A stretch of 64,000 nucleotides of DNA from a virus, in the IMG/VR virus record IMGVR_UViG_3300050138_000176, positions 1 through 64,000 of that record; one strand, written 5' to 3'. The notes beneath the pieces were generated by a model, which saw nothing but the letters and a program-made list of their open reading frames with translations, made no database searches and was not told the origin of the DNA. The number at the start of each line of letters is the position of its first letter. The stretch's first letter is position 1. The position numbers were made by a program, and so were the translations under genes. This document shows, piece by piece, positions 2,998 through 44,550 of the stretch.

Positions 2998-3402
2998 ATG
3001 GTTGACATGGTTCCAGTCCAGTCCAGCAACATAAAGGCCATCGGGCACGACGAGGCCGCCGCCGAGCTGCATGTGCAGTTCCACAACGGCGGCCTGTTCG
3101 TGTTCAAAGGAGTCGGCGCCGACGTGTTCGGCCAGTTCCTGACCGCGGACAGCAAGGGCCAGTTCTTCCACCAGAATATCAAGGACATGTTTCCGTGCGA
3201 CAGCAAGGTGGTCGCCACGGAGAACCCGGCGACGATCCTGCATCTGGACGTGACCTGCGGCGTGTGCGGCGAGGAGATGGGCCACAACCGGAATTCAACC
3301 ACGCAGCCGGCGACTGTCTGGTGCAACAACCGGGACTGCCGCCAGACCGGCAAGCGGTTCAAGGCGCCGGTCACAGCTACCGAACTGGAGGAGATAGTCT
3401 AA
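2998..3402 (+). CDS. KTSC-domain protein with C-terminal Zn ribbon
   Basis: VPVQSSNIKAIGHD...LHVQFHNG...FLTADSKGQFFHQNIK is the KTSC pattern, followed by CGVC...CNNRDC. Confidence 0.8.
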   Translation: MVDMVPVQSSNIKAIGHDEAAAELHVQFHNGGLFVFKGVGADVFGQFLTADSKGQFFHQNIKDMFPCDSKVVATENPATILHLDVTCGVCGEEMGHNRNSTTQPATVWCNNRDCRQTGKRFKAPVTATELEEIV

Positions 3403-4190
3403 TGGCCTGGCGCCCGCTAACCACCGCCGACTACAAGTTTGCGCCTGCCGAACTGGCCGCGCTGAACGCAGTGGCTGGTGCCAGCACCGGACTGACGGCG
3501 TCCATTGGCGTCGTGGTGCGGGAATGGGTTGGCGCGATGGCGGCGGCAGGCAACGAGGTCAACACGGACGGCACAGTGCCCGACCAGTTGCGGCGGCATA
3601 TCATCGCGCTGGCGGTCTGGAACTGGCTGCGGGACTTCCCGAAGTTCAGCTTCGCCAAGACGCCGGAGCGGCAGAAGGCCGCCGAGGAAGCGGATCGCAT
3701 CTACGAAACGATCTGCCGCAAGACCTACGGGGCAATCGAGTCGCCGTCTGGCGTCCAATCGACCGGCGTCATGTGGAACAGCCAGCCGAAAATCATGGGC
3801 CGGATGCAGCCGGTGCCGCTGCCGGAGCAGCAGTTGCAACGGTCGCCGACGCAGGTCTATGCGAACCCAAATGCGCCGCGGGACAACGTGCGGGTGGACG
3901 GCGGCGTGCTCGCGCAGCCGAACGGGTTGCAGGCGTGGAACAAGGGAACAAGCATCCTGCTGTCGTGGCTGCCGGTGCCATGGGCGGAGTCGTATTCAAT
4001 CTACCGTGCCACGACGAGCGGCGCGGAGACCCTGTTGCAGGCGGACGTGGGCGAGACAAATTTCCAGGACAACACCGGGCTGACCAACCTGACGATTTAT
4101 TATTACCGGGTCACGGCGACCAATGACACCGGCGAGTCCTGTGCCAGCGGCGAGGCGAGCGCCAAACTTGACAGCTCGAAGATACCATGA
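3402..4190 (+). CDS. Mu gp36-like head-tail adaptor fused to a fibronectin type III domain
   Basis: Helical N-terminal half in the adaptor position; C-terminal LSW...AESYSIYR...YYYRVTATND.GES FN3 signature. Confidence 0.65.
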   Translation: MAWRPLTTADYKFAPAELAALNAVAGASTGLTASIGVVVREWVGAMAAAGNEVNTDGTVPDQLRRHIIALAVWNWLRDFPKFSFAKTPERQKAAEEADRIYETICRKTYGAIESPSGVQSTGVMWNSQPKIMGRMQPVPLPEQQLQRSPTQVYANPNAPRDNVRVDGGVLAQPNGLQAWNKGTSILLSWLPVPWAESYSIYRATTSGAETLLQADVGETNFQDNTGLTNLTIYYYRVTATNDTGESCASGEASAKLDSSKIP

Positions 4191-4930
4191 ACATCCTGAC
4201 CATACCCCACAAGGAGTTCATGGACCTGGCCGTGTGCGCGGCGGCGGCGGATCTGGAGGCTGTTACGGCAGGCCGCAGCAGCAAGTCGCTGAACACTTTC
4301 CTGTCCGCGTGTCCGCCCGCCGACCGTCCCAGCCGCTACGAGCCGCTGTGCTGCGTCGGCGCGGGCGGCGTGTTCTCGCCGGGGCCAGAGTTTGATGACA
4401 TGGTGGACGACACCATCCACCTGATGACCACCAAAGGCGCCGGCCAGATCAATAAAGCGACTGCGCGCCTCAAGCTCAAGCAGTGGCTCAAGGATCATCA
4501 CTACAAGCCGCAGGCGCCCGGCAGCGCCAGCGACCTGAGCACGGATACGCGGCTAGACCTAATCCTTTCTGTCCAAACAAGGATGCGAAGAGCCGAGAAA
4601 CAATATGACCAAGATACAACAAGGCTTGCCAAGTCAATGTATCCAGCTTGGGAATTTACTCGCATAGAGAACCGGCGCGAGCCGAGACCCTGGAGTGAGG
4701 TTTGGCAGGAACATGGGGGACAATTCTATCCCGGTCCAAGCAGCTACCCAGAAGGCAGAATGATAGCCCGTAAAGACTCTAGCATCTGGACTGAGATAAA
4801 CAGGTTTGGAAATAATTTTGGACCCTGGGATTTTAACAGTGGCATGGGCACTCGTCAGGTAGATAGGGACACCTGTATAAGATACCGCATTATAAGAGCG
4901 GATGAATTTCTATTGAAGGAGGCGGCATAA
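4187..4930 (+). CDS. Mu gpF-like head morphogenesis protein
   Basis: RLDLIL..QTRM, YPAWEF.R...RREPR, and PWDFNSGM motifs. Confidence 0.6.
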   Translation: MNILTIPHKEFMDLAVCAAAADLEAVTAGRSSKSLNTFLSACPPADRPSRYEPLCCVGAGGVFSPGPEFDDMVDDTIHLMTTKGAGQINKATARLKLKQWLKDHHYKPQAPGSASDLSTDTRLDLILSVQTRMRRAEKQYDQDTTRLAKSMYPAWEFTRIENRREPRPWSEVWQEHGGQFYPGPSSYPEGRMIARKDSSIWTEINRFGNNFGPWDFNSGMGTRQVDRDTCIRYRIIRADEFLLKEAA

Positions 4931-26556: not shown

Positions 26557-28677
26557 ATGCCCACCATCGGCACAAACCTCTGGACGCTGACCTACGACCC
26601 GACCGGCGCCAACGTGGAGCAGGCGCTGGCCGACTGGGGCATAACCGGCATGCGGATCGAGTACGTGTCGCAGGCGATGGACACCGTGGCGTTCCGGCTC
26701 GCCGGCTCCAATGTGGACGACCCTCTGGTGTTCGCGTTCCTGAAGGAGTGTGTCATCAAGAGCGGCCGCACCAGCACCGACGGCGTGGTGTTCAGCGGCG
26801 GCAGGTCCCGGTTCCGCGGCCTGGTGCTTGAGCCGAAGCGGGCAGCTCAGGGAGGCGACGAGTCCATGACCTACAAGCTCGGCGGCCCGTGGTGGTACTT
26901 CGAGAATCTGACCGCCGAGGTGGATTTCAAGATCATCACCGCCATCGCTCCAGGCGGCGCCATCACCTACGCGACCTTCCGCAGCACCCATTTCCTGCTG
27001 AATTGGAATGCGCAGAACCTGCGGCAGACCACCGGACAAATAATTGAGGAGATGGTGAAACTCAGCATCACCACCGGCGCGCCGATGCAGATTCTGCCGG
27101 ACGAGACCCGCACTGTGATCAACCTGCCAGGAGAGAACGATGGAACGGCGCTGTGCAGCGCAGGGATACGAAGCGACCTCTACGTGCCGCTGGATGAGGT
27201 GAACACAATCTCGGTCGCGGAATGTATCCGTAAAATGTTCCGCTGGACTCCGGACTTGGTTTCATGGTTCGACTACACGACCGACCCATACCCGACGTTC
27301 CGCTGCTGCCGCCACACGGACATGGCGCAGGTTAACATCGACCTATTGGATGGTGGTGACGTGGCCGGAGTGTCCATCACCAGCGCCACGCTGACGCCGC
27401 GCTACGACCTCCAGCGGCCGTTCGTGAAATTCATCTTCGAGACCACCAACGAGCTGAACGGTCAGAGCACATTCCTGCTCAGTTACCAGACCTACCCGCC
27501 CAGCCCGGACACCACCGGCATCGGCGCGTTCCGTGGCCTGGAGATGACGGTGGCGTTGCAGGGCGCCAACGTGCATACCACCGATGCCACATTGACAAGC
27601 CAGGTGCTGCCGGTTTTCGGTGTAAGTTCATCCGCCGACCTGGCCTACATCAAAGGCAAGTGCAACTGGTTTGCGGATAAGACTGTCGCAGCGCTCACCG
27701 TGAACAGCGTCTCGTTCCAGCAGGCCGACCCGAACGCGGCTCCAGTGGCGTTCTCTCCCACTTACAATTACGAGATCGTGCAGGGCGGCATCACGCCGTG
27801 GATGAGCCAGGGCGGCGTCCCGGCCCTGTGGGATTCGCAGATAGCGATATTCAACGTGGACTACACGCTGTCGAACGGCGAGTTCACGAAGGGCCACAGC
27901 ATCCAGGTGGAGATACGGACGACCAACCTGAACACGAACGGCATCCGCAAGAAGTTCACCGAGGTCAGCGGCACGCCGTTCTCCGAGGCCGTTCCTTCCA
28001 ACCTGGCGCAGGAGTTCTACAACGCGGTCAACGTGCTCCAATGGGACGGCGAGCTGAAGTGCAAGCAGGACGAGGCGGACTGGCTCGACCTGGACGGCGC
28101 ACCGGTCGGCATCGGGTGCGCGCTCAACATCGACGACAGCGCGCAGTTTGCCGGCATGGCCGCCACGATCCAGCAGGTGCGCGTGGATGTGGACACCGGC
28201 AAGACTACGGTGAAGATCGGCCCGAACCGGATGCTGACGGTGAACGACATTGTGGACTTGATGCGGGTCGTGCGGCGGCGGCTGGTGCTGCTGCCTCTGT
28301 CCACGATGACCGGCGGCACGCTCGGCGGCGGCACGTCGCTGGCCCTGGCGGACGCCTACCCGGCCGGCAAGGGGGCGGCGGGCGCCGGCTACAAGCCGGT
28401 GGCCGTGGCCTCGGACAACGGCGGCGCAACGAACAACTACGTGGCGATGAACACGAACCCGCTGGCGTCCGGTCCGGGAGCCGGGTCATGGGGTCTGCTA
28501 GTGCAGCAGGCTGGTGACAATCTTATCAATGTGAGTTACCCGGACGCCATCATAAACGGCGTCAAGCGGCCGGTTGCGCTGCGGCTCTACGACGTATGCA
28601 CCTACGACCCGGCCACTGGAGCGCCGACCGTGCAGCAATGCGTGCTGCTCGGCTCTGTGCCGTTCCCAAAGACGTGA
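26557..28677 (+). CDS. Tail hub / tip protein
   Basis: Follows the tape measure gene; hub-like motifs (RFRGLVLE, YKLGGPWW, IQQVRVDVDTGKTTVKIG). Confidence 0.6.
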   Translation: MPTIGTNLWTLTYDPTGANVEQALADWGITGMRIEYVSQAMDTVAFRLAGSNVDDPLVFAFLKECVIKSGRTSTDGVVFSGGRSRFRGLVLEPKRAAQGGDESMTYKLGGPWWYFENLTAEVDFKIITAIAPGGAITYATFRSTHFLLNWNAQNLRQTTGQIIEEMVKLSITTGAPMQILPDETRTVINLPGENDGTALCSAGIRSDLYVPLDEVNTISVAECIRKMFRWTPDLVSWFDYTTDPYPTFRCCRHTDMAQVNIDLLDGGDVAGVSITSATLTPRYDLQRPFVKFIFETTNELNGQSTFLLSYQTYPPSPDTTGIGAFRGLEMTVALQGANVHTTDATLTSQVLPVFGVSSSADLAYIKGKCNWFADKTVAALTVNSVSFQQADPNAAPVAFSPTYNYEIVQGGITPWMSQGGVPALWDSQIAIFNVDYTLSNGEFTKGHSIQVEIRTTNLNTNGIRKKFTEVSGTPFSEAVPSNLAQEFYNAVNVLQWDGELKCKQDEADWLDLDGAPVGIGCALNIDDSAQFAGMAATIQQVRVDVDTGKTTVKIGPNRMLTVNDIVDLMRVVRRRLVLLPLSTMTGGTLGGGTSLALADAYPAGKGAAGAGYKPVAVASDNGGATNNYVAMNTNPLASGPGAGSWGLLVQQAGDNLINVSYPDAIINGVKRPVALRLYDVCTYDPATGAPTVQQCVLLGSVPFPKT

Positions 28678-28931
28678 ACACCATAGCCAAACTCGTTATT
28701 CTGTTCTGCTGCTTTGCCGGACTGGTTCTGGTTGAGAAGTGGCGCGGCGACCGATTGCAGACAGACTGGGACTACAACCGACGCTCTTTGTGGTTCGAGT
28801 TCCATCATGGCGGCGGGGAAACTATAATTGGCGCTGGTTGGGAAAAGCATTACCCAGTCAACGGTGGATATGATGACGGGTTTTGGAAGCCTTTCTACCT
28901 ATGCGAATCTTGGCATACATCGTCGTATTGA
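28674..28931 (+). CDS. Small membrane-anchored hypothetical protein
   Basis: GTGA overlap; N-terminal hydrophobic stretch. Confidence 0.45.
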   Translation: MNTIAKLVILFCCFAGLVLVEKWRGDRLQTDWDYNRRSLWFEFHHGGGETIIGAGWEKHYPVNGGYDDGFWKPFYLCESWHTSSY

Positions 28932-29284
28932 TTCCTATTTATCTGACCGGCTGCGCCACCGCTCCAGTCACGCCAGTTCTGCCTCCTGTCACCTCGTCGC
29001 CGGCGCGGCCACCGCTGCCGACCATGCCGCCGGGCATGACAGGACATGCGCAACCAGAGGCCGCTCCACAGTCCGTGCCAGTTCAACAGAAGGCGCATAC
29101 AACCGTCGTCGCCGCCGACTGGCCGCCGGTGCCGGGCACCGGGTTCTTTCAGAGCTCGACCGACCTGGTTCATTGGACCACGTTCTACTCGTTCCAAGTG
29201 CCTGACGGCGGCGGCACGGTGACGGCTACCAACCTGTCTCCGGCATCCGTCATGTTCTACCGGGTCGGGAGGTCGGTTCCGTGA
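28901..29284 (+). CDS. Pro-rich lipoprotein
   Basis: MRILAYIVVLIPIYLTG-C lipobox; C-terminal QSSTDLVHWT...MFYRV motif. Confidence 0.7.
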   Translation: MRILAYIVVLIPIYLTGCATAPVTPVLPPVTSSPARPPLPTMPPGMTGHAQPEAAPQSVPVQQKAHTTVVAADWPPVPGTGFFQSSTDLVHWTTFYSFQVPDGGGTVTATNLSPASVMFYRVGRSVP

Positions 29285-40464: not shown

Positions 40465-41097
40465 GTGAACCACGACCTCTACTCAATCCTCGGCCTGCCA
40501 CGCGACGCCACAGATGCCGACATCAAGAAGCAGTATCGGCGGCTTGCTGTCCTATACCACCCGGACGCCGTTCCTCACGCCACAGATTATGAGAAGGAGG
40601 AATCCGCCGCCAAGTTCCGGGAGGTGCAGGAATCCTACGACACGCTCGGCGACCCGGAAGCCAGGGCGCGCTATGACAAGGACGGCACGACCGGCGACGG
40701 CAGCCGGCTCCAGAAGGAAGCCTTGTCGAACGTGTGCGGCCTGGTGCTGGCGGTCGCGGAGACCGGCGGCGAGGGCTGCGACATCGTGGCGGCGGTCCGG
40801 CAGCAGGTCGCCAACGCGAAGACCATGGCGTTGAACGCGGCGGACACCGCAAGGAAAAAGGCCGCGCTGTTCCGGCGGCAGGCGGCCAGGATCACGCGCA
40901 AGGCTGGCGGCGAGAACGTGCTGTCCACGGCCATTGAAAATCAGGCGGACAAGATGGACGCGGCGGCCAGGGACTTCGAGGCCAGCGTGGCGATGCAGGA
41001 CGCCATGATGGGGCTGCTGGCGGACTACGAGTGCGCGGCTTCAACGCAAAATAAATATGTTGCGATTGGCGGACTCACTTACACATGGACGCGATGA
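40465..41097 (+). CDS. J-domain (DnaJ-like) protein
   Basis: DLYSILGL...IKKQYRRLA..YHPD...FREVQESYDTLGD...RARYD. Confidence 0.9.
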   Translation: MNHDLYSILGLPRDATDADIKKQYRRLAVLYHPDAVPHATDYEKEESAAKFREVQESYDTLGDPEARARYDKDGTTGDGSRLQKEALSNVCGLVLAVAETGGEGCDIVAAVRQQVANAKTMALNAADTARKKAALFRRQAARITRKAGGENVLSTAIENQADKMDAAARDFEASVAMQDAMMGLLADYECAASTQNKYVAIGGLTYTWTR

Positions 41098-41299: not shown

Positions 41300-41881
41300 A
41301 TGAAAATCCAAATTACATTCAGCGAAGAAGTGTTAGGGACGGCGTCTCAGAACCCGGAAATACACAGGGAGTTTATCGCAAGCAAATCTCCAGACGCAGC
41401 AACGGTGGAAGATGAAGTGGCGGCAATTGGAGCGGATGCTGTCGCCGATAAAATGATGACCGTATTCCCGCGTGACGGTGGAAAGCCGTTTGTTTACGAC
41501 TACCAAATCAAAGGCTTCTTCAAGGATGCCTGCGCATCTCTGGCGCGGGTACCCGGCACTCAAAGCAATAAACTAAAAGCGTATAAAAAGGTGATCGATG
41601 GAACCATCTTTATCTTTCCACGAAAAATCCATTTCGGCGGTGAGGTTAAGCTTGGAAATTGCCAAAGACCTCTGCGGGCCGAAACAGCTCAGGGGCCGCG
41701 TGTCGCGCTGGCAAACAGCGAGACATTGCCATCTGGTGCGACATTGGAATGCGAGATACGGTGCCTAGATGAAGGCATGGAGAAAGTGGTTAAGGAATGG
41801 TTGAACTACGGAGCGTTGCGAGGTCTGGGACAGTGGCGGAATTCAGGCAAAGGCAGGTTCTCATGGAAGTTAATGGAATAA
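41300..41881 (+). CDS. Stand-alone RAMP/Cas7-like RNA-binding protein
   Basis: N-terminal strand KIQITFSEEVLG, central PFVYDYQIKGFFKDAC helix, E.LPSGATLECEI, and C-terminal Gly-rich loop GALRGLGQWRNSGKGRF. Confidence 0.7.
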   Translation: MKIQITFSEEVLGTASQNPEIHREFIASKSPDAATVEDEVAAIGADAVADKMMTVFPRDGGKPFVYDYQIKGFFKDACASLARVPGTQSNKLKAYKKVIDGTIFIFPRKIHFGGEVKLGNCQRPLRAETAQGPRVALANSETLPSGATLECEIRCLDEGMEKVVKEWLNYGALRGLGQWRNSGKGRFSWKLME

Positions 41882-42164
41882 GCAACGGCGTGGCAACACC
41901 GAGCACAGCAATGATTAGTACAGCAAAGGCTACGCAAGGCCGCTCACCGTATAGCAATGGCACTGCACGGCGGATCAAGGCGCAGTAAAGCATAGGCATG
42001 GCAACGCCGGGAACAGCGACGGCAGGGCAGGGTGTTGCAGAGCGCGGCCACGGCAAGGCGAGGCAAGGTGCAATAACGCATAGCAAAGGCATTGCGAGGC
42101 GCTGCCGCGAGTAGCAAAGGCTTGGCTCAGTGAGTCAACGCCAAGCATAGCAAAGGCAAAGCAT
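41881..42164 (+). ncRNA. Pentamer (NGY-NN) repeat array, putative guide-RNA locus
   Basis: AGCAAAGGC-like punctuation at 41881, 41922, 41953, 41989, 42015, 42046, 42082, 42113 and 42149 (spacings 41, 31, 36, 26, 31, 36, 31, 36; all 5n+1). 36 of 44 intervening pentamers start with NGY. The array is directly visible; the RNA function is inferred. Confidence 0.65.
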
Positions 42165-42172
42165 AATAAGAT

Positions 42173-43903
42173 ATGACATCCGAAACCAAACTCGATCAGT
42201 GGCAGGAAGCAGCGGCGGCCAGCACCAGCGACATAATCTACGTGTGCGCCTGTCCTGGAAGTGGGAAAACTGCAACCACCGTAGAGCGTGTGCGAAGGAT
42301 GCTGGCGCGTGGTGTCGCACCGGAAACCATCTGCTGCGTTACGTTCACTTGTGCGGGTGCTCTCGAAATGCAGAAGCGGCTCGGTGTCCGGCTCGGTCAC
42401 TGCGGCACGCTTCACTCCCTCGCGCTCAAAATGCTGACCAAGCACCACAAACTTGCCGGGCTGCCGGCCCGCGTCACCGTTACCGACGAGCAGGAGGCGG
42501 CGGCGTCGCTGGCCGAGATCGTGACCATGCTGCGCTTTGATGGAAAGATTAGCGACAAGAAGCTGGCTGAGGCGGTCAAGTCGCAGCGGCACGCGATGGC
42601 GTTCGCCGGTGCCATCGAATCCTCGTCGCTGACCAAGGAAGGCGTGGTCGCCAAGGAATTCTTCCGACGGCAGCAGGAGGCTGGAGAATTGGACTACGAC
42701 TCGGTGCTGGTCTATTTCCTGCGGCTGCTCAAGACTGGAGTGGAGCCGTGGCCGTTCAAGCACCTGCTCGTGGATGAGGCTCAGGACAACGCGGCGATTG
42801 ACTGGGATATCTATGACCTGATGCCGGTCAAGACACGGTGGGCGGTGGGTGACATCGACCAATCCATCTATTCCTTCCGTGGAGCCAAGCCAGTAAGATT
42901 CCTGTCAAGAATAGGCGAGGCACAAAACAGCATCGCGTTCGGTCAAGCATTCCAACTGCCTACAAACTACAGATCGGGACGCGCCATCGTGACCGCCTCG
43001 CAACGCCTCATTGCGCACAACACGGCCCGCGTTGCAATGACCGCGCAGCCGCGACCGGACGCCGGTGACGGCATGGTGCAGAGCAAGGAGTTCAATGCGC
43101 CGGTCGATGAACTATCGTGGGTCGCCAACGAGTTGTCCAAGCTGGCACCCGGCGACACGGCGGCGGTTCTGTGGCGCACGAATCGTCTCGCTGACCAGTG
43201 CCGACAGCACTTCCAGAGCCTCGGCGTCAAGCTGGCGCAGCCGCTGGCGAGGGAGCCGAAGGAGGCCAGGGCGGCGCGGGCCGTTCTTAATTTCCTAGCC
43301 TCGCCTTGGAGTGATACGGCGGCGTTGCGGGCCGCGAAGGCGGTCGGACTGGACGCTTCAACGGTGCATTCGCAGTGCGACTTCCAAGGCCAGTCACCGT
43401 GCGTTCTGCTCAACGGCGGCATGGGTGCTTTTGACCGTGACGACGGAAACCCGGTCGCGTTTACAGTGGACGAATTCAAGGAGGCGCTCCGTGCCGTCCA
43501 AGTCCTGTCTGCTACCGGCACCGACGGCATCCGCGACGCGCTGCACAAGCTCGCGGCCTCGCTGCCGGAGCCGTTCACGCTCACCGACCTGATCTCGGCA
43601 GCGAACAGCCGCGACGAGCCGGTCGCGGAGCAGGAAGGGATAATAATTTCTACCGCGCATTCTGCAAAAGGACGGGAATGGGATATTGTGATAATTTGTG
43701 GCATGGAACAGGAAACATGGCCTGGCCGCAACGCCGCAGAAGATTTGGAAAGCGAACGGCGCTTGGCGTACGTGGCCACGACAAGGGCACGGAGCAGATT
43801 GGTTGTTACATGGTGCAAGCAGCGTCCCGCACCTGGACGCGCTTGGTTGATGCAGGATATGACACCGTCGCAATTTATTTCAGAACTTGGCTTGACCAAG
43901 TAA
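42173..43903 (+). CDS. UvrD/Rep-like SF1 helicase
   Basis: ACPGSGKT, VTFT, TLHS, LVDEAQD, VGDIDQSIYSFRGA, LPTNYRS, STAHSAKGREW, ERRLAYVATTRA. Confidence 0.95.
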   Translation: MTSETKLDQWQEAAAASTSDIIYVCACPGSGKTATTVERVRRMLARGVAPETICCVTFTCAGALEMQKRLGVRLGHCGTLHSLALKMLTKHHKLAGLPARVTVTDEQEAAASLAEIVTMLRFDGKISDKKLAEAVKSQRHAMAFAGAIESSSLTKEGVVAKEFFRRQQEAGELDYDSVLVYFLRLLKTGVEPWPFKHLLVDEAQDNAAIDWDIYDLMPVKTRWAVGDIDQSIYSFRGAKPVRFLSRIGEAQNSIAFGQAFQLPTNYRSGRAIVTASQRLIAHNTARVAMTAQPRPDAGDGMVQSKEFNAPVDELSWVANELSKLAPGDTAAVLWRTNRLADQCRQHFQSLGVKLAQPLAREPKEARAARAVLNFLASPWSDTAALRAAKAVGLDASTVHSQCDFQGQSPCVLLNGGMGAFDRDDGNPVAFTVDEFKEALRAVQVLSATGTDGIRDALHKLAASLPEPFTLTDLISAANSRDEPVAEQEGIIISTAHSAKGREWDIVIICGMEQETWPGRNAAEDLESERRLAYVATTRARSRLVVTWCKQRPAPGRAWLMQDMTPSQFISELGLTK

Positions 43904-44040
43904 CGCTTATGGGTTTTACTTATTGCCAGCGGATTAAGTCCCGTTTATGCAAACAAAACATCTTTGCTCCCGACGCCTTTTGGCGGCGACTCCCCGTCAG
44001 CCGCGGCTTAACTCTTGGCGGCGGGAGCTTTAGGATTAGC

Positions 44041-44550
44041 ATGGAAAACATTAACATAACCATTCAAAGACCACTCAATGCCAGAACCAAAAGCCATCCA
44101 TTGTTCCAGACATATAAGAGTTGGAGGTCTATGCGAGACCGGTGTAACAATCCACGCATACCAGACTGGAAGCGTTATGGCGCAAGGGGGATTAAGGTTT
44201 GTGAGCATTGGTCTGTATTTCAAAACTTCCTAAACGACATGGGGATCAGGCCGGATGACACTTCCATCGACCGTATAAATAATGACGGAAACTACGAACC
44301 AGGAAACTGCCGGTGGGCATCAAGACAGGAGCAGGGAAATAATCGGCGAACCAACCGAATTGTGGAATACGGTGGGAAAAGGCTAACCATTTCTCAGTGG
44401 GCTGAATTAATTAAGATAGACTATGAGGCCCTGAGATATAGGCTAGACGCCGGCTGGTCAATTAAGGAAGCTTTGGAAACCCCATCCAGAAACGAGAGAA
44501 CGACCGATATTCACACGGTCATGGAACGCGAGCCGCAACTAGACTTATGA
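44041..44550 (+). CDS. HNH homing endonuclease
   Basis: SWRSMRDRC, YGARGIKVC.HW..FQNFLNDMG, SIDRINNDGNYEPGNCRW. Confidence 0.9.
   Translation: MENINITIQRPLNARTKSHPLFQTYKSWRSMRDRCNNPRIPDWKRYGARGIKVCEHWSVFQNFLNDMGIRPDDTSIDRINNDGNYEPGNCRWASRQEQGNNRRTNRIVEYGGKRLTISQWAELIKIDYEALRYRLDAGWSIKEALETPSRNERTTDIHTVMEREPQLDL

What the first reader, a model, noticed from the sequence alone, without database searches (positions are those of the whole stretch)
41881..42157. Second level of order in the array: 5n+1 blocks punctuated by AGCAAAGGC
Seen: nine punctuation motifs (four exact AGCAAAGGC, five variants) break the 5-nt register by exactly +1 each time, making blocks of 41, 31, 36, 26, 31, 36, 31 and 36 nt (7, 5, 6, 4, 5, 6, 5 and 6 pentamers). 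No two blocks share a dinucleotide string, so this is not recent slippage of a microsatellite. Inference: the 6-nt step marks processing sites or filament boundaries, yielding about eight separate crRNA-sized guides, each with 8-14 variable nucleotides.
Basis: partly seen in the sequence, partly recalled or inferred. Interest (0 to 1): 0.8.

Follow-up and report, generated by a model that had tools for sequence, protein, structure and literature searches.

The report
Block-structured VIPR guide-RNA array in phage
The five-letter repeat tract after a small Cas7-like gene of this peat phage is a guide-RNA array of the VIPR kind described in 2026, and its regular one-letter register slips divide it into short modules that are probably separate guides.

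Summary
Between 41881 and 42157 the 5-nt register slips by exactly +1 at nine AGCnnnGGC motifs, giving blocks of 41, 31, 36, 26, 31, 36, 31 and 36 nt.

The tract is a vrRNA array of a VIPR system: a Vipr RAMP protein plus GGY/NN pentamer guides (bioRxiv 10.64898/2026.04.26.720920). The upstream 193-aa protein aligns over its full length with the characterised SUSP1 Vipr.

The +1 slips are a property of the whole family:
- 61 non-identical arrays (the window's among them): 613 slips of +1 against 30 of -1.
- Slip consensus: GCAAnGGCA.
- Block sizes: 26, 31 or 36 nt in 445 of 523 intervals.
- Nine bacterial MAG loci show the same pattern.
- Related arrays share blocks in a conserved order and differ by whole blocks.

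This probably corresponds to the preprint's "staggered arrays" (fig. S18). I saw only that legend, and the preprint reports no RNA data for this architecture.

Whether each block is cut out as a separate guide is untested. No RNA runs were listed and no targets were found.

This scan has noted VIPR loci many times on other DNA. I class this as a new member of a known kind, of moderate interest.

The parts
41300..41881 (+). vipr gene: 193-aa minimal RAMP (Cas7-like) protein. Its G-loop contains Q178-W179-R180. The stop codon is at 41879-41881.
   Evidence: No Pfam or PHROG family. hhalign of the 36-sequence profile A1 against SUSP1 Vipr: probability 83.7%, E 8e-6, 172 columns. PDB profile hits: Cas7 at E 1.8e-5 and Csm4 at E 1.8e-3. 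PADLOC Cas7_IIId at E 7.2e-5. More than 7,700 homologues. 1,721 clusters at 50% identity.
41881..42165 (+). vrRNA array: 54 units of the form x-G-Y-N-N plus nine one-letter slips. It starts on the last base of the vipr stop codon and ends 8 nt before the helicase ATG.
   Evidence: Composition A .30, C .26, G .33, T .11. RNA folding no better than shuffles, z = -0.59. No Rfam family.
41881..41889 (+). Punctuation 1 (AGCAACGGC), a 6-nt step.
41887..41927 (+). Block 1, 41 nt: 7 variable pentamers, then the xGCAA unit, then 1 extra letter.
41928..41958 (+). Block 2, 31 nt.
41959..41994 (+). Block 3, 36 nt.
41995..42020 (+). Block 4, 26 nt.
   Evidence: It also carries the 26-of-27-nt match to a Vibrio phage tail gene.
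42021..42051 (+). Block 5, 31 nt.
42052..42087 (+). Block 6, 36 nt.
42088..42118 (+). Block 7, 31 nt.
42119..42154 (+). Block 8, 36 nt. A two-unit stub follows at 42155-42164.
42173..43903 (+). UvrD-like SF1 helicase, the neighbour gene. It is not a conserved partner of this Vipr family.
   Evidence: Pfam UvrD-helicase at E 2e-38. No homologue beside vipr in 0 of 61 IMG/VR loci and 0 of 9 MAG loci.

Best explanation
The tract is the guide-RNA (vrRNA) array of a phage VIPR system. It is transcribed on the + strand with the vipr gene.

Vipr protomers bind one pentamer each. Each protomer holds the conserved G (and Y) and exposes the two variable letters for gapped pairing with DNA.

In this Vipr clade the array has no long structured tails. 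It is instead divided into short modules of the form GGCAn-(nG[C/A]nn)k-nGCAA-n. At each junction, GCAA-n-GGCA, one extra letter shifts the register by +1. The G that would be the scaffold G of the old register becomes the first G of a strict GGC in the new one.

I infer that each junction ends one Vipr filament and starts the next. On this reading each 26-41-nt block is a separate short guide of about one filament turn, freed by cleavage at or near the extra letter.

What is shown: the sequence architecture, its conservation, its strand specificity, its modular evolution, and the homology of the protein to a characterised Vipr.

What is inferred: transcription, processing at the junction, the NN/1-nt-skip code in this clade, and the function (silencing of rival mobile elements, as published for type II).

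My odds: about 0.85 that this is a VIPR array, and about 0.55 that the blocks are separate processed guides. The confidence given for this entry (0.6) is for the whole statement, including separate guides.
For: Protein:
- The A1 profile aligns over its full length with SUSP1 Vipr.
- The SUSP1 contacts for G2 and Y3 (W178, R179) align with W179 and R180, which are invariant in A1. The SUSP1 contacts for G1 (H17, D177) are T14 and Q178 here (residues from 10.64898/2026.04.26.720927, section 5).
- This fits the array. Unit position 1 is G in 95% of units, while position 0 is G in only 40%.
- RAMP signals.

Linkage of gene and array:
- In 79 of 80 IMG/VR loci the strongest period-5 tract lies just downstream of the gene.
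- All 9 MAG loci have an array on the same strand.

Slips:
- 613 slips of +1 against 30 of -1 and 1 of +2 in 61 non-identical arrays.
- 100 of +1 against 4 of -1 and 3 of -2 in the 9 MAG loci.
- The slip logo is nGCAAnGGCA, with G, C, A, G and G at 93-100%.
- 445 of 523 inter-slip intervals are 26, 31 or 36 nt.
- The motif is strand-specific: 364 copies against 0.

Modularity:
- There are 441 distinct blocks among 674, and arrays are mosaics that share blocks in a conserved order.
- Clean single-block indels of 21, 26, 26, 26, 31 and 31 nt exist.
- Related modules in the window keep the same NN letters on different scaffolds.

Other:
- SUSP1 guide tracts of 12-15 units show no internal slip, so the slip is not a general property of pentamer tracts.
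- The published binary filament has six subunits per turn (720927, section 5), and the modal block has six units.
- No + strand promoter or terminator was found between vipr and the helicase.
Against: - No RNA evidence at all, so processing is unproven.
- No target was found. In 0.95 Mb of held DNA (both strands together), NN with 1-nt skip gave 170 perfect hits against 163.7 for shuffled blocks. An 11-unit block of L091 had 0 matches in viral contigs, 0 of 5 source genomes and 0 of 301 class relatives.
- Under the NN code a 31-nt block specifies only about 9-12 letters, which is poor specificity for a lone guide.
- Block size is not fixed. It reaches 11 units in the planctomycete-type loci, so 'one turn per block' is not a rule.
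- 10 of the 16 clean indels do not sit on block boundaries. Five of these are large events against one locus, L030.
- The family-wide excess of shared NN runs is weak: 29 observed against 18.6 with sd 4.5, and a maximum of 31 in 200 shuffles.
- The hhalign probability of 83.7% is good but not overwhelming, and I could not fold the protein.
- 61 of the 70 comparison loci (the 61 IMG/VR loci) come largely from one metagenome, so the counts are not independent events.
Confidence: 0.6

Rival explanations
1. The array gives one long guide, or a few. The extra letter is a hinge inside a continuous Vipr filament that resets the phase roughly once per turn. It is not an RNA end, and the target runs on across junctions.
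For: - The structure paper says vrRNA length sets filament length and that natural vrRNAs reach about 30 repeats (720927, section 9).
- No internal promoters, terminators or hairpins were found.
- Short blocks have low specificity on their own.
- The mean period is 268/52 = 5.15 nt (my arithmetic). The slip recurs every 5-7 units, near the 5-6 subunits per turn of the published filaments (720927, sections 5 and 6).
Against: - Whole blocks are gained, lost and replaced one at a time between related arrays. That would break a contiguous target.
- The two letters before the slip and the first after GGC are conserved (AA at 75% and 93%, A at 73%), which is not what guide letters do.
- GGY is held jointly by two adjacent protomers (720927, section 5), so an extra letter should break the lattice.
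- The fig. S18 legend speaks of individual processed vrRNAs.
Confidence: 0.2
2. The tract is a protein-binding decoy or sponge RNA. It soaks up Vipr of rival phages, or a host RNA-binding protein, and guides nothing.
For: [quoted passage not shown] No targets were found here.
Against: The array always sits beside its own vipr gene. The N positions are hypervariable, with 441 distinct blocks; a sponge needs only the scaffold letters.
Confidence: 0.05
3. It is a DNA-level element, such as a replication origin, an iteron field or phased curved DNA for the adjacent helicase. On this reading the +1 slips keep the 5-bp units in step with the 10.3-10.5-bp helical repeat.
For: Twice the mean period is 10.3 bp. 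GC is a palindrome, so both strands carry the period. In the window the tract lies in a replication and repair gene block next to a UvrD-like helicase.
Against: - The junction motif is strictly strand-specific and co-oriented with vipr: 364 copies against 0.
- The helicase and all other window neighbours are absent from 61 and 9 related loci that still have gene plus array.
- The + strand has only 11% T.
- The linked protein is homologous to an RNA-binding filament protein.
Confidence: 0.03
4. It is a chance pattern or recent microsatellite slippage.
For: None beyond the low complexity of the tract.
Against: The score is about 26 sd above shuffles. All blocks differ. The pattern is conserved down to 41-55% protein identity in nine phylogenetically scattered MAGs. 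Tandem Repeats Finder sees no simple repeat.
Confidence: 0.01

Closest known systems
VIPR systems with 'staggered' vrRNA arrays (bioRxiv 10.64898/2026.04.26.720920, Results and the legend of fig. S18)
   Same: A Vipr RAMP gene beside a tail-less pentamer array. [quoted passage not shown] The +1 junction here fits this: its GG doublet is G2 of the old register and G1G2 of the new one.
   Different: I saw only the legend, because figures and supplements are closed. I therefore cannot confirm that this clade, its GCAAnGGCA junction or its 26/31/36-nt block sizes are what is drawn there. The preprint states that the other two architectures, not this one, were confirmed by sRNA-seq.
Type II VIPR of Escherichia phage SUSP1 (KT454805.2: vipr at 28474-29061 on the minus strand, with flanking GGTNN tracts)
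   Same: A homologous protein of about 195 aa, with the G-loop W-R conserved. Five-letter units with two variable letters. Phage-borne. The array lies on the strand of vipr.
   Different: - SUSP1 has 12-15 uninterrupted units per vrRNA, each followed by a conserved structured tail of about 40-60 nt (paper section 6).
- Here blocks of 4-8 units are separated by a single extra letter, with no tail.
- The G1 position is not conserved here, and its contact residues are changed.
- No homologue of any window neighbour gene lies beside vipr in the related loci; a vap gene of another kind was not looked for.
Class 1 CRISPR backbone (Cas7 filament on crRNA)
   Same: A RAMP fold signal, a filament on a guide, and a periodic thumb that takes letters out of pairing. 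A short conserved element alternates with variable segments of crRNA-like length.
   Different: The period is 5, not 6. The 'repeat' is only about 10 nt and is not a hairpin. No cas genes were seen among the genes scanned (36.5-44.5 kb), and TRF and Rfam found no CRISPR-like array in the window. There is no known adaptation machinery.
TIGR-Tas arrays
   Same: Compact tandem guide arrays, often phage-borne, with very short conserved elements. They are listed beside VIPR as periodic arrays in 10.64898/2026.10.21.760802 (passages).
   Different: The period is 18 nt and the effector is a different protein (TasA). The Nop-domain nature of Tas is recalled from memory, not from a call.

Membership tests
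VIPR | A Vipr protein: a minimal RAMP homologous to characterised Viprs. | tested here: met
   hhalign of A1 against SUSP1 Vipr: probability 83.7%, E 8e-6, full length. Cas7 and Csm4 hits in the PDB. PADLOC Cas7_IIId. ESM Atlas neighbours are auto-named RAMP (a lead only).
VIPR | RAMP fold with RRM core, G-loop and thumb in a 3-D model. | not testable with these tools
Only the G-loop is visible at sequence level.
VIPR | Tandem 5-nt repeats (GGY/NN or a related consensus, at least 4 units) in the intergenic DNA flanking vipr. | tested here: met
   54 units in the window. Unit consensus x-G-[C/A]-N-N. The preprint's Methods section 20 allows NNNGG, YNNNG and NNNNG variants.
VIPR | Variable NN alternating with a conserved scaffold across relatives. 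| tested here: met
   Information content is 1.3-2.0 bits at G and at most 0.4 bits at the N positions in 295 blocks of 26, 31 or 36 nt.
VIPR | A conserved structured 3' tail after each repeat tract (type II). | tested here: not met
   No tail; junctions are a single extra letter. Folding z = -0.59. The preprint describes tail-less 'staggered' arrays, so this excludes type II but not VIPR.
VIPR | Viral or proviral carriage, with no CRISPR array or cas operon. | tested here: met
   G000 is a virus record of 86,504 bases. PHROG phage genes lie nearby. There are no Rfam hits and no CRISPR-like repeats in 64 kb. I did not scan every ORF of the window for cas genes.
VIPR | An accessory vap gene in the operon. 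| tested here: inconclusive
   A UvrD-like helicase follows the array by 8 nt. It is absent beside vipr in 0 of 61 and 0 of 9 related loci.
VIPR | vrRNAs are expressed, bind Vipr, and direct DNA binding by the 1-nt skip rule. | not testable with these tools
   No RNA run was listed. No targets were found.
CRISPR-Cas | Direct repeats of 23-50 nt with spacers, plus cas1/cas2 or an effector operon. | tested here: not met
   The conserved element is about 10 nt. TRF and Rfam find no array. The only CRISPR-related protein signal is the lone RAMP.

The most novel reading that the evidence does not exclude
This very large Vipr clade has more than 1,700 clusters at 50% identity. It may run a distinct guide format: tail-less mini-guides of 4-8 pentamers, about one filament turn each. 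On this reading each is delimited only by a self-contained GCAA-n-GGC junction that both ends one filament and nucleates the next. Each guide would read only about 8-14 letters, so targeting must be combinatorial, with several modules of one array converging on variant forms of one site. The window's AA-CG-AC and AA-GC-AA-AT module families hint at this. That would be a new way of punctuating and processing an RNA-guide array without hairpins, ribozymes or a dedicated nuclease.
Probability: 0.35. Interest if true: 0.6.

Novelty: new member of a known kind. Interest (0 to 1): 0.4.

Why it matters
VIPR is a months-old class of RNA-guided DNA binders, proposed to be ancestral to CRISPR. Its only tested guide format is the long, tailed vrRNA of type II.

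This locus and its thousands of relatives show a second, much more compact format. Its unit boundaries can be read directly from the sequence as a one-letter register slip at GCAAnGGCA.

If the blocks are separate guides, three things follow:
- Array annotation becomes simple for what appears to be a very abundant clade in gut and soil phages.
- The minimal length of a working VIPR guide comes into question.
- Designers of multiplexed VIPR arrays would have a 10-nt separator.

If the blocks are not separate guides, the slip instead says something about how a Vipr filament tolerates register breaks.

Tried and rejected
I used sequence profiles and the ESM Atlas instead.

P0245 as query found nothing. 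P0078 gave the nine MAG loci.

RNA evidence. Only two peat-metagenome DNA runs were listed and no RNA holder.

Targets.
- Local search: 328 blocks, three pairing rules (NN, NNN, MNNN) and skips of 0-3, against 0.95 Mb of held DNA (both strands together) with the arrays masked. There was no enrichment. NN with skip 1 gave 170 hits against 163.7 for shuffled blocks. The few NNN/skip-2 and MNNN/skip-1 hits have period 5 and are probably unmasked array remnants. An earlier regex version timed out.
- Contiguous pairing: BLAST of the window array against GenBank phages gave one 26-of-27-nt match. It joins block 4 to the major tail protein V gene of one Vibrio phage lineage, with E 0.02. The same gene is the only IMG/VR hit. 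Arrays of L001 and L044 gave only E 0.8 and 0.2. I treat the Vibrio match as probably chance.
- The 1-nt-skip pattern of an 11-unit block of L091 gave 0 hits in viral contigs. It gave 0 of 5 source genomes at up to 2 mismatches. It gave 0 of 301 genomes of the class at up to 1 mismatch, with the reversed control at 1.
- Sister phages, as possible targets: the helicase found no relative in IMG/VR. It found only 24-25% identical ones in the metagenome collection.

Nucleotide-level global alignment of arrays gave uninterpretable gap sizes, because replaced blocks align arbitrarily. I replaced it with the clean-indel analysis.

Rejected readings:
- TRAP-like or CsrB-like ring-binding RNA, and TIGR arrays, were considered early. 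I dropped them once the protein proved homologous to Vipr.
- The helicase as effector partner was rejected as a family feature. It remains possible for this one phage.

Papers.
- 10.64898/2026.04.26.720920: I read the outline, all of Results, Methods sections 18 and 20, and passages including the legends of figs S17-S22.
- 10.64898/2026.04.26.720927: I read the abstract and sections 5, 6 and 9.
- 10.64898/2026.10.15.759431 and 10.64898/2026.10.21.760802: passages only.
- Figures and supplements were not visible. Fig. S18 and data S4 may already show this clade and its junction.
- Literature searches.

Full report
**The observation**

The stretch 41881-42172 is the only gap between a 193-codon ORF (41300-41881) and a UvrD-like helicase gene (42173-43903), all on the + strand.

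GC dinucleotides recur every 5 nt, and their phase advances by one at nine places. A dynamic-programming parser for units of the form x-G-Y-N-N, with equal penalties for +1 and -1 slips, gives nine 6-nt steps and no shorter step inside the array. The steps fall at 41881, 41922, 41953, 41989, 42015, 42046, 42082, 42113 and 42149.

The parser score is 41.9. In 300 dinucleotide shuffles it is 5.3 with sd 1.4, and the maximum in 900 other tiles of the window is 11.8. All four copies of AGCAAAGGC in the 64-kb window lie in the array. It is the only such tract in the 86.5-kb genome.

**What it is**

A full-text search led to bioRxiv 10.64898/2026.04.26.720920. It describes VIPR systems with these features:
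- a minimal phage-borne RAMP protein, Vipr;
- vrRNAs made of GGY/NN pentamers;
- variable NN letters that pair with double-stranded DNA while skipping every third target base.

The 193-aa protein has no Pfam or PHROG family. A profile of 36 homologues gives the following:
- full-length alignment with the characterised Vipr of phage SUSP1: probability 83.7%, E 8e-6;
- Cas7 and Csm4 hits in the PDB through the C-terminal glycine loop;
- a weak hit to Cas7_IIId models.

In the SUSP1 structures G2 stacks on W178, Y3 sits against R179, and G1 is read by H17 and D177 (10.64898/2026.04.26.720927, section 5). In the window protein the aligned residues are W179 and R180, both invariant in the family, and T14 and Q178.

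This matches the array. The second scaffold letter is G in 95% of units. The third is C or A. The first is G in only 40%.

**The second level of order is a family trait**

The protein family is very large: more than 7,700 clusters at 90% identity and 1,721 at 50%.

Evidence from relatives:
- In 79 of 80 IMG/VR loci the strongest period-5 tract lies just after the gene.
- I dropped 19 identical arrays and one mis-parsed locus (L026). The 61 remaining arrays (60 IMG/VR loci plus the window's own) contain 3,700 five-letter steps, 613 six-letter steps, 30 four-letter steps and 1 seven-letter step.
- The letters around the slip form the logo nGCAAnGGCA. The interval between slips is 26, 31 or 36 nt in 445 of 523 cases.
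- The motif occurs 364 times on the strand of vipr and never as its reverse complement.
- Nine loci from MAGs labelled from Prevotella to Planctomycetales, with 41-62% protein identity to the window's protein, show 100 +1 slips against 4 of -1 and 3 of -2. Their blocks reach 11 units.
- SUSP1's own tracts run 12-15 units without a slip and are separated by long tails.

**Blocks behave as modules**

The 674 blocks fall into 441 distinct sequences. Related arrays share blocks in the same order but differ by single inserted, missing or replaced blocks.

Among 16 clean indels between arrays, 8 are of single-block size, and 6 of those sit exactly on parsed boundaries. The other 10 events do not sit on boundaries; these include five large deletions relative to one locus.

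In the window, blocks 1, 2 and 4 share the guide letters AA-CG-AC, and blocks 3 and 6 share AA-GC-AA-AT, on different scaffold letters. 39 of 5000 shuffles reach this degree of sharing. Family-wide the excess of such sharing is weak: 29 observed against 18.6 with sd 4.5.

**How it probably works**

At each junction the GG doublet serves as the scaffold G of the old register and as the first two letters of a strict GGC in the new one. [quoted passage not shown] S18).

GGY is clamped between two neighbouring protomers. An extra letter should therefore interrupt the filament. I infer that each block carries its own short filament of about one turn, given six subunits per turn in the free complex, and that the RNA is cut at or near the extra letter.

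Nothing here tests that. No RNA run holds this DNA. The tract has no predicted structure. No + strand promoter or terminator was found.

**What counts against this reading**

I found no targets by any rule. Short blocks would have little specificity alone.

The main rival is a continuous filament with hinges. The conserved, non-variable letters at the junction and the one-block-at-a-time evolution argue against it.

A DNA-level reading is unlikely, given the strand specificity and the absence of the helicase from all 70 related loci.

**Novelty**

The system is in print (four 2026 preprints), and this scan has noted it on many other genomes. The block architecture probably equals the preprint's 'staggered arrays'. 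There it was described only in a supplementary figure and not confirmed by RNA sequencing.

Beyond what I could read in print, this report gives the junction consensus, the size distribution, the strand test and the modular evolution.

Noticed in passing
window 41995-42021; L083 301-327; L084 889-914: Block 4 matches 26 of 27 contiguous letters of the major tail protein V gene of one Vibrio phage lineage (Her, H20-like). The match begins exactly at the block start. E is 0.02 against 2.3 Gb, and it is the only IMG/VR hit. It is probably chance, but unexplained.
   Followed up: partly
L013 3620-4200: In one gut-phage relative an HNH endonuclease gene lies between vipr and its array, so the array starts at 4225 instead of about 3623. 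The gene's product is 42% identical to that of the window's ORF at 43678-44550. It looks like a homing-endonuclease insertion.
   Followed up: partly
L088 1925-2454; L089 2062-2328: In two MAG loci the best-scoring pentamer array lies upstream of vipr rather than downstream, still on the same strand.
   Followed up: no
window 43678-44550: This HNH endonuclease ORF (PHROG 3377, E 5e-52, match from residue 144) overlaps the 3' end of the helicase gene by about 225 nt as listed. Its true start is probably later.
   Followed up: no
window 40465-41097: A phage-encoded DnaJ-domain protein (Pfam PF00226, E 7.5e-21) lies two genes upstream of vipr.
   Followed up: no
L090 and L091 arrays (3106-3576): The arrays on the Pirellulales and Sedimentisphaerales MAG contigs have much longer blocks, up to 11 units, with a near-invariant AGCAAA-GGC junction. 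Block length seems to be clade-specific.
   Followed up: partly
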